This document shows, piece after piece, positions 1,041-40,633 of a stretch of DNA of 45,251 nt. Positions within the stretch are counted from its first letter, which is position 1; every line of letters begins with the position of its first letter. Origin of the DNA: Escherichia phage vB_EcoS-101114BS4. The stretch lies in sequence record NC_073061.1. One strand, 5' to 3'. The notes below the pieces were generated by a model, which saw only the letters and a program-made list of their open reading frames with translations, searched no databases and was not told the DNA's origin. The translations under genes were made by a program, and so were the position numbers.

Positions 1041-1521
1041 TGACAACGGTCTAAGATTTACGGCAGCGTGGGAGTCGTTCAGCCCAGTGCCGTATTTCGC
1101 GACTAAGAAGGAGCAGGCCCGCGGCTTGTACACCTGGGGCTACGGTCATACTGGCACTAATCCGCCACAGAGCATTACCCGCGCGGAAGCGCTGGAGCTA
1201 CTCAAGCGTGATGTGGCGTATGCCGAGAACTGGGTGAACAAGTACGCACACCCGAGCATCAATCAGGCGCAATTCGACGCGCTGGTGGATCTGGTAATCA
1301 ATGCCGGTCAAGGTCCGATCGTACCGGATAACATTGCCAATGACTTCGATGACGCGGTGCGCCTGGGTGATTGGGCCAAAGTCCGTGCTACGCTGCCGCA
1401 GTTCCGCAAGCAAGGCGGTGAAGTGCTCAAGGGCCTGGTACGTCGTGCAATCGGCAGACAGGCGCTATTCGATGGTAAGCAGTGGGACGTTGCCGAGAAA
1501 ATCGGTCGTAACGCGGCATAA
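1030..1521 (+). CDS. Endolysin, lysozyme-like (GH24-type)
   Basis: PVPYFATKKEQARGLYTWGYGHTG resembles the catalytic region of phage lambda/P21-type lysozymes as I recall them; 163 aa; sits in the lysis cluster. Confidence 0.75.
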   Translation: MRFSDNGLRFTAAWESFSPVPYFATKKEQARGLYTWGYGHTGTNPPQSITRAEALELLKRDVAYAENWVNKYAHPSINQAQFDALVDLVINAGQGPIVPDNIANDFDDAVRLGDWAKVRATLPQFRKQGGEVLKGLVRRAIGRQALFDGKQWDVAEKIGRNAA

Positions 1522-1537
1522 TAAGAGGAAACACAGT

Positions 1538-1705
1538 ATGTTAAAAAGTATTCTTGATCATAACGCGGACGCGCTTGCCGCACTGGCTAAAACGGAAGAC
1601 CCAGGCGCGCGCGCCATTATCGCGGACACTATCAGTCATGCGGGTGTCTTTGACGTGAAGCTGCCAAGCCCGCCACCGCCGGAAGAACCAGGCCCAGCGG
1701 CATAA
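1538..1705 (+). CDS. Small hypothetical protein with a proline-rich C-terminus
   Basis: ATG 1538, 55 aa (MLKSILDHNADALAALAKTEDPG...LPSPPPPEEPGPAA); no signal peptide or lipobox, so not called a spanin. Confidence 0.3.
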   Translation: MLKSILDHNADALAALAKTEDPGARAIIADTISHAGVFDVKLPSPPPPEEPGPAA

Positions 1706-39280: not shown

Positions 39281-39531
39281 TATTTCGTCTCCCAACGGTC
39301 AATTACTTTTTCCTCCGACGATACGGCAAAGCGAACATATTCCAGATTGGAGTCCGCCCAAATATAGAAGTCGGGGTTAGTAAATGTGGTGCGCTTAATT
39401 TGCGCGGGGTTATCGCGGCGTTTATCTATTACGGCAACGCGTGATTTAAAGTTGCCGGTACGTTCGAATAGCCAATAATAAGGGCGCTGGTCGCGTGAAT
39501 CCACCGCCTCGATTAGCGTGAAGCGTGCCAT
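39280..39531 (-). CDS. Hypothetical protein
   Basis: 83-aa ORF (MARFTLIEAVDSRDQRPYYW...) with GAGGA RBS. Confidence 0.5.
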   Translation of the reverse strand: MARFTLIEAVDSRDQRPYYWLFERTGNFKSRVAVIDKRRDNPAQIKRTTFTNPDFYIWADSNLEYVRFAVSSEEKVIDRWETK

Positions 39532-39544
39532 TGTCTCGTCCTCT

Positions 39545-39571
39545 AAAAATAGGCCCGCAGATTAGCGGGCC
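39545..39571 (-). terminator. Internal intrinsic terminator in the leftward operon
   Basis: On the minus strand: ggcccgc-uaaucu-gcgggcc hairpin followed by uauuuuu. Confidence 0.6.
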
Positions 39572-39709: not shown

Positions 39710-40228
39710 TTAATCTTCTAATTCGAAATAAGTTTCGACGATTGCTTTTAATTCCTGGTGGAACTCTTCCACGTCGTCATCTTCCAGCTTGGCAACGGAT
39801 TTAATTTCGAATTCTTCCAGCAGGTCGTCAAATTCGTCGTTTGCGTCGTCGTCATCACCGCCAGCAATAATAGCGGCATACTGCTTGATTTCGTCGCGCA
39901 TCTCTTTCAGCGGATCGGCATCTTTCTTGCCTTTACCTTTCGCCGGTGCTTTCTTAGATTTCGCCGGGGCTTCTTCTTCGTCGTCCGCGTCGTCTTCTTC
40001 TACGGCTTCTTTCTTAGCCTTGCCCTTTGCTGGCGCTTTTTTGGTCTTAGCCGGTGCTTCGTCTTCAGCGTCGTCATCTTCGACTACTTCTTCTTTTGCC
40101 TTGCCCTTAGCCGGGGCTTTCTTCGCTTCCTGTTTACCAACGGCAGCGCCAGCAGTTTCATAATGCTTAGCGATGGTTTCCAGTGCTACTACGCCGCGTG
40201 TGATCAGGTTTACGATTTGCTCAAACAT
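39710..40228 (-). CDS. Lys/Ala/Glu-rich repeat protein (histone H1-like composition), first gene of the leftward operon
   Basis: ATG 40228 (MFEQIVNL) with GGAG RBS; repeats EAPAKTKKAPAKGKAKKE; the upstream in-frame ORF extension is treated as 5' leader. Confidence 0.55.
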   Translation of the reverse strand: MFEQIVNLITRGVVALETIAKHYETAGAAVGKQEAKKAPAKGKAKEEVVEDDDAEDEAPAKTKKAPAKGKAKKEAVEEDDADDEEEAPAKSKKAPAKGKGKKDADPLKEMRDEIKQYAAIIAGGDDDDANDEFDDLLEEFEIKSVAKLEDDDVEEFHQELKAIVETYFELED

Positions 40229-40424
40229 TGTATATCTCCGATTGGTTAAGTTTAGGTGTCGGCAGTCAACTTCGTCGGTGGCCTTAACATAGTGCCAGGT
40301 TACGCGTTCTCCCTTTCGGGTAGTGGACCTGGTTATATAATCACGGTTGGGAATCCTGACACTTCGATCCGGCCCCTGCGTTGCCCCTCTCCAGTTTGCG
40401 TCCTGCATCCTGTCGACGGAGTGA

Positions 40425-40454
40425 ATAATAGATTGGTTGCAGGTGGGGTGTCAA
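40425..40454 (-). promoter_or_regulatory. Candidate sigma70 promoter for the leftward operon
   Basis: On the minus strand: TTGACA, 18 bp spacer, TATTAT; the spacer contains TGCAACCAAT; leader of about 190 nt to the ATG at 40228. Confidence 0.5.
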
Positions 40455-40465
40455 CAACTAATTTC

Positions 40466-40524
40466 AAAAAAAAAAAAGCGCCGAGGCAAAATGCGACGGC
40501 GCTAACCAATAAGAGACAATGAGA
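40466..40524 (-). ncRNA. Candidate small RNA unit (promoter, about 60 nt, intrinsic terminator)
   Basis: Minus-strand TTGAAA-N17-AATAAT (40532-40560) followed by hairpin gcgccg...cggcgc and a U12 tract (40466-40502); the transcript would contain ugucucuuauugguua. Confidence 0.3.
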
Positions 40525-40573
40525 CGTGATTATTATTACACGCGTGCGCGCCCGTTTCAATATACAAAAGGAG

Positions 40574-40602
40574 TTGACACCCTGCAATTTTAGGTGTAGT
40601 TT
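40574..40602 (+). promoter_or_regulatory. Candidate sigma70 promoter for the rightward operon
   Basis: TTGACA (40574-40579), 17 bp spacer, TAGTTT (weak -10), 30 bp upstream of the ATG at 40634. Confidence 0.4.
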
Positions 40603-40633
40603 CGTTGGTCATTAACCAATAGGAGACAGAACA

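What the first reader, a model, noticed from the sequence alone, without database searches (positions are those of the whole stretch)
40466..40560. Candidate small antisense RNA unit in the divergent control region
On the minus strand a good promoter (TTGAAA-N17-AATAAT) is followed about 30-60 nt later by a hairpin and a run of twelve U residues, a self-contained unit too short to encode a protein. The predicted RNA contains ugucucuuauugguua, which is complementary (16 of 16 positions with one G-U pair) to the translation-initiation region uaaccaauaggagaca of the first rightward gene (40612-40627), and partly to the region uaaccaaucggagaua preceding the first leftward gene. The RNA is templated by a duplicate copy of that RBS context at 40503-40518. 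This could be a trans-acting antisense regulator of early-gene translation, or a terminator that insulates the leftward promoter.
Basis: inference. Interest (0 to 1): 0.7.

Follow-up and report, generated by a model that had tools for sequence, protein, structure and literature searches.

The report
Conserved small RNA gene between phage promoters
This HK578-like (Dhillonvirus) coliphage carries, between its two divergent early operons, a mini-gene conserved across the genus (strong promoter, about 56-nt RNA, terminator) whose RNA could pair with the ribosome-binding sites of the first early genes; the unit looks real, but its regulatory role is plausible rather than proven.

Summary
On the minus strand, TTGAAA-17-(TG)AATAAT (40560..40532) is followed by a 23-nt unstructured stretch, a GC-rich hairpin (40478-40502) and U12 (40466-40477). 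The 16-mer box occurs three times in 45 kb, all in this intergenic region. The rightward copy is at 40613-40628, not 40612-40627.

The window is a Dhillonvirus. All 35 sequences examined (25 distinct) carry the unit. Both promoter hexamers and the 23 transcribed nucleotides are nearly invariant, while the stretch between the -10 hexamer and the predicted start, the gap between the two -35 hexamers and the paralogous rightward leader vary freely. One clade shows two compensatory stem changes plus an A-U to G-U change that pairs only on the minus strand. A short minus-strand RNA is therefore well supported.

The trans-antisense role is only partly supported. Pairing with the rightward initiation region is the best non-self site in the genome (-23 kcal/mol), but 16/16 is specific to this sublineage, there is no seed-target covariation, and HK578-type phages lack that target. 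DNA-level operator or insulator readings remain open.

In passing: the adjacent leftward promoter is followed at once by an undescribed, covariation-supported ~160-nt structured leader RNA (40257-40417) shared by several phage genera.

The parts
40555..40560 (-). P1 -35 hexamer TTGAAA
   Evidence: Consensus scan. One variable column (TTGAAC in a single phage) among 19 distinct relatives. Annotated as a promoter in the HK578 GenBank record.
40538..40554 (-). P1 17-bp spacer. It contains the extended -10 TG (40540..40539) and a 14-nt strictly alternating purine-pyrimidine tract, ACACGCGTGCGCGC (40538-40551 on the plus strand).
   Evidence: It is unusually conserved for a spacer (4 of 17 columns vary), and the base substitutions seen keep the alternation.
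40532..40537 (-). P1 -10 hexamer AATAAT
   Evidence: Invariant in all relatives.
40526..40531 (-). Stretch between the -10 hexamer and the predicted transcription start (near 40525)
   Evidence: 5 of 6 columns vary, including 1-nt length changes, and conservation resumes exactly at GTCTC. The start site is inferred, not measured.
40503..40525 (-). Unstructured 5' 'seed' of the predicted RNA, GUCUCAUUGUCUCUUAUUGGUUA. It is the antisense of the duplicated initiation-region box at 40503-40518.
   Evidence: Unpaired in the MFE and centroid folds. 1 of 23 columns varies across the genus. Box duplication shown.
40478..40502 (-). Terminator hairpin: 6+3 bp, plus an A-U closing pair 40503/40477, with a 2x2 internal loop and a UUU loop
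   Evidence: 100% of cells paired, 2 compensatory pairs, and an A-U to G-U change that works only on the minus strand. Variation is otherwise confined to the internal loop. Annotated as a terminator in phage CS16.
40466..40477 (-). U12 tail of the terminator
   Evidence: Length varies from 8 to 13 among relatives.
40613..40628 (+). Candidate target 1: initiation region UAACCAAUAGGAGACA of the first rightward gene (start codon 40634; 109-aa HTH protein, followed by primase-helicase)
   Evidence: It lies within a few nt of the predicted 5' end of the PR transcript.
40233..40248 (-). Candidate target 2: initiation region UAACCAAUCGGAGAUA of the first leftward gene (true start codon at 40228)
   Evidence: Cofold ddG -15.1 against -8.0 +/- 2.4 for shuffled seeds.
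40425..40454 (-). P2, the leftward early promoter TTGACA-18-TATTAT. It starts 12 nt after the U tract.
   Evidence: 11 of 12 matches. Annotated in HK578. Its -35 region GTTGACACCC is an inverted copy of that of PR.
40574..40602 (+). PR, the rightward early promoter TTGACA-17-TAGTTT, back to back with P1 (13 bp between the two -35 hexamers)
   Evidence: Read from the sequence. Annotated in HK578. The -35 hexamer is invariant.
40257..40417 (-). Context, not part of the small RNA: a ~160-nt structured leader RNA at the 5' end of the P2 transcript
   Evidence: Covariance-model hit of 145 bits. 93.6% of cells paired and 20 of 41 pairs compensatory.

Best explanation
The unit is an independent small-RNA gene. 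Host sigma-70 RNA polymerase starts at P1 (near 40525) and stops at the hairpin-U12 terminator, giving an RNA of about 55-60 nt. That RNA has an unstructured 23-nt 5' end and a terminator hairpin with a poly-U tail, the usual build of an enterobacterial base-pairing sRNA.

The 5' end is the antisense of a duplicated copy of the early-gene translation-initiation region. The proposal is that it pairs in trans with the Shine-Dalgarno regions of the first rightward gene (HTH protein, then primase-helicase) and the first leftward gene, and lowers their translation. Because the RNA gene is replicated with the genome, this would give dose-dependent negative feedback or shut-off of early functions.

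Shown: the anatomy, genus-wide conservation, stem covariation and the complementarity.
Inferred: transcription itself, the exact RNA ends, pairing in vivo and the regulatory outcome.
For: - P1 is near consensus with an extended -10.
- Its hexamers are invariant, while the stretch between the -10 hexamer and the start and the gap between the two -35 hexamers vary.
- Conservation restarts at the predicted start site. The 23-nt seed has 1 variable column, against 28 of 31 in the paralogous PR leader in the same genomes.
- The stem keeps 100% pairing, with two compensatory pairs and an A-U to G-U change that would be a C-A mismatch on the other strand.
- The seed is single-stranded in the fold.
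- The 16-mer box occurs only in this control region.
- The rightward initiation region is the best non-self duplex site in the whole genome on both strands (-23.1 kcal/mol).
- Cofolding with the PR mRNA 5' end gives ddG -23.5, against -7.6 +/- 2.4 for shuffled seeds. The leftward initiation region gives -15.1, against -8.0 +/- 2.4.
- Phages with the 109-aa-type gene keep -16 to -19 kcal/mol, reached by 0-6 of 300 shuffles.
- No minus-strand genes lie upstream for the terminator to serve.
- The plus-strand mini-ORF is read in two different frames among relatives, so it is not coding.
Against: - There is no expression data. No Dhillonvirus transcriptome was found.
- The seed is invariant while the targets vary, with no compensatory change.
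- The 16/16 match is limited to this sublineage.
- HK578 and CHD5UKE2 have an unrelated rightward leader with non-significant pairing (-12.4 and -14.9).
- Random genomic sites come within 1-3 kcal/mol of the best site in a simple duplex scan. The leftward initiation region is only in about the top 1%.
- The box carries A where all real initiation regions have G, which gives weaker G-U pairs.
- One metagenomic lineage has a 15-bp P1 spacer.
- The AACCAAT core recurs four times in the region, and the rightward copy is half of a palindrome at the PR start site. A DNA-binding-site explanation is therefore viable.
Confidence: 0.4

Rival explanations
1. DNA-level control region with an insulating mini-transcript. 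The three boxes (core AACCAAT, also present in the P2 spacer) are operators or half-sites for a phage regulator, for example the HTH protein encoded by the first rightward gene. P1 is a real promoter whose product has no trans function. Its terminator only stops P1 transcription from running over P2 and from adding a 5' extension to the structured leader RNA that must start at the P2 transcript's 5' end.
For: - AACCAAT occurs at 40241-40247 (-), 40432-40438 (-), 40504-40510 (+) and 40614-40620 (+).
- The rightward copy is part of the palindrome TTGGT-cattA-ACCAA (40605-40619) across the predicted PR start.
- The first rightward gene encodes an HTH_23 / sigma-70-region-4-like protein in both gene variants.
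- The P1 spacer is conserved far more than a spacer needs to be.
- P2 starts 12 nt after the U tract and launches a 5'-terminal structured RNA.
- Other phages place a terminator directly before the promoter of that leader RNA.
Against: - The similarity among the three boxes extends through the Shine-Dalgarno part (GGAGA[CT]A), which suggests an RNA-level origin.
- Only one copy is palindromic.
- The middle copy lies at +8 to +23 of P1, an odd operator position.
- This reading does not explain why the whole 23-nt transcribed stretch, including the second GUCUC, is invariant while the other copies drift.
Confidence: 0.25
2. The small RNA is made and acts in trans, but on something other than the phage early initiation regions. 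Candidates are a conserved host mRNA, or titration of Hfq through its long U tail. The resemblance to the phage initiation regions would then reflect only its evolutionary origin by duplication.
For: - The seed is invariant across the genus while the proposed phage targets vary or are replaced. That pattern is what a constant host target would produce.
- The architecture fits Hfq-type sRNAs.
Against: - No host target could be searched with the tools available.
- No homologue of the unit exists in 5,426 E. coli genomes.
- Complementarity to the phage initiation regions remains well above shuffled controls in most relatives.
Confidence: 0.12
3. Leader and attenuator. P1 is a second promoter of the leftward operon. 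Its transcripts normally stop at the terminator, as with the lambda PR'-tR' 6S RNA, and read through only when a phage or host antitermination factor acts.
For: - P1 and P2 are tandem and have the same orientation as the leftward operon.
- A constitutive short transcript in front of a regulated operon has the lambda late-promoter precedent (established knowledge).
Against: - The terminator is strong: -16.7 kcal/mol and U8-13 in all relatives.
- A near-consensus P2 sits immediately downstream, so read-through is not needed.
- No Q-like or N-like gene was identified.
- Read-through would add a 5' extension to the structured leader RNA.
Confidence: 0.07
4. Replication element. The conserved block (A tract, GC hairpin, box, AT-rich -10, alternating GC tract) is part of the origin next to the primase-helicase gene. 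The P1 transcript would then activate or prime replication, as was once proposed for lambda oop RNA.
For: - It is adjacent to the helicase-primase operon.
- The cumulative GC-skew minimum falls at about 40.5 kb.
- The DNA is strongly conserved even in the promoter spacer.
Against: - The skew switch coincides with the switch in transcription strand, so it is uninformative.
- No iteron array is present.
- The coordinates of that deletion are not given.
- The stem change that pairs only on the minus strand points to selection on RNA.
Confidence: 0.08

Closest known systems
P1/P7 c4 antisense RNA (and, similarly, the P4 CI RNA)
   Same: A phage-encoded small RNA acts in trans on the ribosome-binding region of a phage mRNA through short sequences that are duplicated copies of the target (review PMC12197685; other details from established knowledge).
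   Different: - c4 and CI are processed out of the same transcript that carries their targets, and they control lysogenic immunity in temperate elements.
- This unit has its own promoter and terminator, is divergent from one proposed target operon, and sits in a virulent phage.
- There is no sequence or structure match to any Rfam family.
Lambda OOP RNA and P22 sar RNA
   Same: These are short (about 70-80 nt), self-contained promoter-to-terminator units inside a phage control or replication region, made by host RNA polymerase and acting as antisense RNAs.
   Different: - They are cis-antisense: they overlap their target gene and are perfectly complementary to it.
- This unit overlaps no gene and no predicted mRNA. 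Its complementarity comes from a paralogous copy 110 bp away.
Plasmid countertranscript copy-control RNAs (pMV158 RNAII with CopG; R1 CopA)
   Same: A small, constitutively made RNA with a terminator hairpin targets the initiation region of a replication operon whose first gene is a small DNA-binding regulator. Repression therefore scales with gene dosage.
   Different: - The plasmid RNAs are encoded antisense within the rep leader itself.
- This RNA would act from a separate locus and on two divergent operons.
- The function here is untested.
Enterobacterial Hfq-dependent trans-acting sRNAs
   Same: Own sigma-70 promoter, single-stranded 5' seed, AU-rich stretch before a GC-rich terminator hairpin, long U tail, and imperfect pairing at the Shine-Dalgarno region.
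   Different: Hfq binding is untested, the gene is carried by a phage, and there is no homologue in E. coli genomes.
Lambda PR'-tR' 6S RNA
   Same: A short constitutive transcript ends at a strong terminator just upstream of an operon in the same orientation.
   Different: Lambda has no second promoter after the terminator and uses Q antitermination. Here P2 follows immediately, and no Q-like factor is known.

Membership tests
Sigma-70 promoter | -35 and -10 hexamers close to TTGACA/TATAAT with a 16-18 bp spacer | tested here: met
   TTGAAA-17-AATAAT with TG, 10 of 12 matches.
Sigma-70 promoter | Hexamers conserved relative to flanking bases | tested here: met
   The -10 hexamer has 0 of 6 and the -35 hexamer 1 of 6 variable columns. 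The stretch between -10 and the start has 5 of 6, and the upstream flank 7 of 13.
Sigma-70 promoter | Initiation of transcription in vivo or in vitro | not testable with these tools
   No transcriptome of any Dhillonvirus was found.
Intrinsic (Rho-independent) terminator | GC-rich hairpin immediately followed by a U tract | tested here: met
   -16.7 kcal/mol hairpin followed by U12. U8-13 in relatives.
Intrinsic (Rho-independent) terminator | Stem maintained by compensatory change on the transcribed strand | tested here: met
   10 of 10 pairs kept in all 4 variant types, with 2 compensatory pairs and 1 A-U to G-U change that pairs only on the minus strand. All of these come from a single divergent clade, so the support is modest (25 of 500 shuffles reach the observed value).
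Trans-acting base-pairing sRNA (Hfq-type architecture) | Independent transcription unit with a single-stranded seed and a terminator with poly-U | tested here: met
   No upstream minus-strand genes.
Trans-acting base-pairing sRNA (Hfq-type architecture) | Seed complementarity of at least 7 nt to the target initiation region, above background | tested here: met
   Rightward initiation region -23.1 kcal/mol, the best non-self site. ddG -23.5 against -7.6 +/- 2.4. 17 of 19 relatives reach -16 to -23.
Trans-acting base-pairing sRNA (Hfq-type architecture) | Co-variation of seed and target across relatives | tested here: not met
   The seed is invariant and the targets vary without compensation. 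Two phages lack the rightward target.
Trans-acting base-pairing sRNA (Hfq-type architecture) | Detected transcript, Hfq binding and a regulatory effect | not testable with these tools
   Needs a northern blot or RIL-seq, and reporter assays.
Cis-antisense phage RNAs (lambda OOP, P22 sar) | Transcribed opposite to, and overlapping, the regulated gene or mRNA | tested here: not met
   The unit (40466-40525) lies more than 80 bp upstream of the predicted PR start and overlaps no conserved ORF.
P1/P7 c4 RNA | Sequence and structure homology to c4 | tested here: not met
   No Rfam family reaches its gathering score. At E<=10 only chance terminator-type matches appear.
P1/P7 c4 RNA | Pairing segments are duplicates of the target's ribosome-binding region | tested here: met
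   Direct repeat D1 and inverted repeats I1 and I2.
P1/P7 c4 RNA | Processed from the transcript that also carries its targets | tested here: not met
   Own promoter and terminator, and divergent from PR. The processing requirement itself comes from established knowledge.
HK022 put RNA (considered for the neighbouring leader RNA, 40257-40417) | About 70 nt, two stem-loops, immediately downstream of an early promoter, binds RNA polymerase (PMC9378689) | tested here: inconclusive
   The promoter-proximal position is met in every genus. Size and fold differ: about 160 nt and 9 helices. Polymerase binding is not testable here.

The most novel reading that the evidence does not exclude
A strictly virulent siphophage genus uses an invariant, trans-encoded 'anti-initiation-region' small RNA. 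The RNA arose by duplicating the early-gene leader. It acts as a gene-dosage sensor that throttles translation of both divergent early operons (replication and recombination), making it a phage counterpart of plasmid countertranscript copy control. It sits beside a second, undescribed promoter-proximal structured RNA, so the early control region would be largely RNA-based.
Probability: 0.25. Interest if true: 0.65.

Novelty: new member of a known kind. Interest (0 to 1): 0.45.

Why it matters
Regulatory small RNAs are well documented in temperate phages (OOP, sar, c4, CI) but rarely in virulent ones. Dhillonviruses are common laboratory and therapy-candidate coliphages (HK578, SECphi4, several BASEL phages). 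In the records inspected this control region carries at most consensus promoter or terminator calls, or spurious 'hypothetical protein' ORFs.

If the RNA represses the HTH/primase-helicase operon and the leftward early operon, it would explain how a phage that relies on host polymerase limits early expression. It would also give a simple handle for engineering, through seed mutations. Separately, defining the P1, P2 and PR layout corrects misannotated start codons. It also frames a published observation that deleting part of this promoter region changes sensitivity to the OLD defence system.

Tried and rejected
1. Protein-coding reading of the plus-strand mini-ORF that starts at ATG 40519. It stays open in all relatives but is read in two different frames (YYYTRARPFQY against LLLHACAPVSI), because no frame of the GC-rich spacer has a stop codon. 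It is not coding.
2. Known RNA families. There are no Rfam hits at gathering thresholds in the whole window, and only chance terminator-like matches at E<=10.
3. Host origin or mimicry. The unit has no match in 5,426 complete E. coli genomes.
4. Homologous units in outgroups.
   - Cornellvirus Shemara has a 145-bp divergent region without the unit.
   - Phage Hrm2 and the Guernseyvirinae have a different conserved minus-strand hairpin/terminator region that cannot be aligned with this one.
5. A plus-strand terminator reading. The hairpin is preceded by A12 and not followed by T's on the plus strand, so it is unidirectional.
6. GC skew as origin evidence. The minimum falls at the control region but is confounded by the switch in transcription strand.
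7. A third target. GAGACAAUG at the start of the gene at 39531 is complementary to the seed, but the ddG (-14.8) is only about 2 sd from shuffled seeds, and GGAGAC-type Shine-Dalgarno sequences are common in this genome.
8. Host-target prediction. This was not feasible, because short-seed searches cannot pass the E-value limits in the 28-Gb collection.

Full report
**Identity and layout.** The window is essentially a complete genome of a Dhillonvirus, an HK578-like virulent siphophage of E. coli. The 411-bp control region is 99.8% identical to phage vB_EcoS-101114B2 and matches 191 phage records. Long plus-strand ORFs run from about 0.5 to 24.8 kb and from 40.6 kb to the end, and long minus-strand ORFs run from about 24.9 to 40.2 kb. 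Positions 40229-40633 are therefore the divergent early control region.
- The first rightward gene (40634) encodes a 109-aa HTH_23 / sigma-70-region-4-like protein and is followed by a 754-aa primase-helicase.
- The first leftward gene really starts at 40228. The longer ORF from 40408 is an artefact.

**Check of the observation.** All elements are present.
- Minus-strand promoter: TTGAAA-17-AATAAT with an extended -10 TG, at 40560..40532.
- Downstream RNA: GUCUCAUUGUCUCUUAUUGGUUA, then a hairpin with 6+3 GC-rich pairs, an A-U closing pair, a 2x2 internal loop and a UUU loop, then U12. MFE is -16.7 kcal/mol, z = -2.9, and the 5' part is unpaired.
- Box: the 16-mer occurs three times in the genome with up to 3 mismatches, where 0.21 are expected.
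- Just 12 nt after the U tract comes a second, near-consensus leftward promoter, P2 (TTGACA-18-TATTAT, 40454..40425).
- The rightward promoter PR (TTGACA-17-TAGTTT, 40574-40602) is back to back with P1.
- P2 and PR share the 10-mer GTTGACACCC in inverted orientation, so the region looks like an old inverted duplication.
- The HK578 GenBank record independently annotates these three promoters. The CS16 record annotates the hairpin as a terminator. Both annotations are consensus predictions only.

**Comparative evidence that the unit is real.** I collected the region from annotated phages, IMG/VR and metagenomes: 35 sequences, 25 distinct. Variation is distributed exactly as a promoter-RNA-terminator gene predicts.

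| Segment | Variable columns |
|---|---|
| P1 -10 hexamer | 0 of 6 |
| P1 -35 hexamer | 1 of 6 |
| Between -10 and predicted start | 5 of 6 (with length changes) |
| Between the two -35 hexamers | 7 of 13 |
| 23-nt transcribed seed | 1 of 23 (a 1-nt deletion in one clade) |
| Paralogous PR leader, same genomes | 28 of 31 |

- Conservation resumes precisely at GTCTC, about 7 nt after the -10 hexamer.
- Within the hairpin, most changes fall in the internal loop.
- In the LM40P1 clade the stem carries G-C to U-A and G-C to C-G compensatory changes, plus an A-U to G-U change that would be a C-A mismatch on the plus strand. All these stem changes come from that one divergent clade, and 25 of 500 shuffles reach the same covariation score, so this support is modest.
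- The U tract varies from 8 to 13.
- No minus-strand genes lie to the right, so the terminator can only serve P1.
- Caveats: one metagenomic lineage has a 15-bp spacer, and no transcriptome exists for any Dhillonvirus.

I put the probability that a short minus-strand RNA is made at about 0.8.

**Does it act as an antisense regulator?**

In favour:
- A duplex scan of both strands of the genome ranks the rightward initiation region as the best non-self site (-23.1 kcal/mol).
- Full-length cofolding gives ddG -23.5 kcal/mol, against -7.6 +/- 2.4 for shuffled seeds. The leftward initiation region gives -15.1, against -8.0 +/- 2.4.
- The rightward target lies at the very 5' end of the predicted PR mRNA and covers the Shine-Dalgarno sequence.
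- The RNA has the canonical build of an enterobacterial base-pairing sRNA.

Against:
- Unrelated sites come within 1-3 kcal/mol in the simple scan, and the leftward site is only in about the top 1%.
- The perfect 16/16 match is peculiar to this sublineage. Most relatives have TAACCAAC[ACT]G... and reach -16 to -19 kcal/mol, still reached by only 0-6 of 300 shuffles.
- HK578 and CHD5UKE2 carry a different first rightward gene and leader, with non-significant pairing (-12.4 and -14.9).
- The seed never changes while the targets drift, so there is no covariation.

An invariant seed with drifting phage targets fits three situations: a multi-target seed, a constant host target, or a DNA-level constraint.

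**DNA-level rival.**
- The AACCAAT core occurs four times in 400 bp.
- The rightward copy is half of a palindrome, TTGGT-cattA-ACCAA, across the PR start.
- An HTH protein is encoded right there.
- The P1 spacer is oddly conserved. It is a 14-nt strictly alternating purine-pyrimidine tract whose base substitutions preserve the alternation.

A regulator binding these sites, with the terminator only insulating P2, is a serious alternative. I rank this reading second, the trans-antisense reading first (0.4), and the attenuator, host-target and origin or primer readings below them.

**Comparison with known systems.** It works most like P1/P7 c4 and P4 CI, which are trans-acting RNAs whose pairing segments are duplicates of the target ribosome-binding region (PMC12197685). 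It also resembles plasmid countertranscripts that throttle a cop-rep operon. It is not a member of those families.
- It has no Rfam match.
- It has its own promoter and terminator rather than being processed from the target transcript.
- It does not overlap its targets, unlike OOP, sar or the plasmid countertranscripts.
- It has no homologue in 5,426 E. coli genomes.
- It is absent from the nearest outgroups.

**Found in passing: a structured leader RNA.** P2 is followed at once by a ~160-nt structured RNA (40257-40417, minus strand).
- BLAST showed this segment is shared, in unannotated DNA, with phages outside Dhillonvirus: Drexlerviridae (tunus, slyngel, KMI8, 'Pseudomonas' phage Motto), Murrayvirus Lumpael, HeidiAbel_Bas97, Serratia MQ-4 and Enterobacter Arya.
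- Some Dhillonviruses have a 14-nt hairpin in its place.
- A hand-built nine-helix model gives covariance-model hits of 141-190 bits in 27 of 31 sources searched.
- 93.6% of cells are paired and 20 of 41 pairs carry compensatory changes. None of 500 shuffles reaches the observed paired fraction or covariation score, and slid controls give 32-42% paired.
- In every genus examined it starts a few nt after a sigma-70 promoter, and it precedes unrelated genes.
- Its 5' hairpin shows a CsrA-SELEX-like ACARGGAUG loop.
- It has no Rfam match even at E<=10.
- It is absent from E. coli genomes. Among 100,044 species genomes it matches only one 42.8-kb contig in a metagenome-assembled genome.
- Its position recalls HK022 putL (PMC9378689), but its size and fold differ.

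This element is probably the more novel object in the region. It also matters for the finding, because the terminator of the small unit keeps P1 transcripts from adding a 5' extension to it.

**Verdict.** The small transcription unit is very likely genuine and is new as a family. The antisense mechanism is the best single explanation but is unproven (about 0.4). Novelty: a new member of a known kind, phage trans-antisense sRNAs. Interest is moderate.

Noticed in passing
window 40257-40417 (minus strand): A ~160-nt structured RNA begins a few nt after the predicted P2 start. It has nine helices, 93.6% of cells paired and 20 of 41 pairs with compensatory changes. It is present in about 170 phage records: most Dhillonviruses, several Drexlerviridae, Murrayvirus, HeidiAbel_Bas97, Serratia MQ-4 and Enterobacter Arya. 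It always directly follows a sigma-70 promoter and precedes unrelated genes. It has no Rfam match, is absent from E. coli genomes and is virtually absent from 100,044 species genomes. Its 5' hairpin loop matches the CsrA-binding motif ACARGGAUG. Possible roles are put-like antitermination, 5'-end protection or CsrA binding.
   Followed up: yes
window 40261-40413, against loci L004, L006, L007 and L008 (about 1490-1505): The leader RNA behaves as a mosaic cassette. Sloth, YD-2008.s, JLBYU37, CHD5UKE2 and LM40P1 lack the ~150-bp element; the first four have a 14-nt hairpin (CGGGCGGTATGCCC) in its place. Naturally occurring phages with and without the leader therefore exist for comparison.
   Followed up: partly
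window 40538-40551: The P1 spacer is a 14-nt perfectly alternating purine-pyrimidine tract (ACACGCGTGCGCGC) containing the palindromes ACGCGT and GCGCGC. It is conserved far more than a spacer usually is, and the base substitutions seen among relatives keep the alternation. It may be a Z-DNA or supercoiling-sensitive element, or a protein-binding site.
   Followed up: partly
window 40605-40619: The palindrome TTGGT-CATTA-ACCAA spans the predicted PR start and overlaps the rightward box. It is conserved in phages with the 109-aa HTH gene and replaced, together with the gene, in HK578-type phages. It is a candidate autoregulatory operator.
   Followed up: partly
window 40446-40455 and 40573-40582: P2 and PR share the 10-mer GTTGACACCC in inverted orientation, and their leaders share the initiation-region box. 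The divergent early promoters therefore look like an inverted duplication.
   Followed up: no
window 39710-40408 (minus strand); locus L009 960-1679: The mechanical 232-aa ORF, and the CDS annotated in phage SD276, extend the first leftward gene upstream across the leader RNA. The Shine-Dalgarno-supported start is at 40228 (172 aa). Several GenBank records also call small 'hypothetical proteins' inside the non-coding control region.
   Followed up: partly
window 39710-40228 (minus strand): The first leftward gene encodes a 172-aa low-complexity protein. It has repeated KKAPAKGKAKKE-like basic blocks alternating with long acidic runs, and no Pfam family above threshold.
   Followed up: no
L097 (Escherichia phage Hrm2) 1433-1682; loci L131-L134: A distantly related phage (primase-helicase 34% identical) has a minus-strand promoter (1682..1653) and terminator (1453..1433) bracketing about 215 nt in its own divergent control region. 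This stretch contains a second copy of the rightward gene's initiation-region box with the Shine-Dalgarno sequence spoiled (AAACAGTAGATAT against AAACAGGAGATAT; 0.01 expected). Part of the region, including the terminator, is conserved in 388 Jerseyvirus, Kagunavirus and other records, mostly in unannotated DNA. This may be an analogous RNA unit.
   Followed up: partly
window 39552-39571 (minus strand): A terminator-like hairpin (GGCCCGC-n6-GCGGGCC followed by UAUUUUU) lies inside the leftward operon and is conserved in all relatives, with loop variation. It is followed by an initiation region, GAGGACGAGACAAUG, whose GAGACAAUG is complementary to the small RNA's CAUUGUCUC.
   Followed up: partly
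Literature: bioRxiv 10.64898/2026.07.10.737580: [quoted passage not shown] That is this control region, but coordinates are not given in the text.
   Followed up: partly
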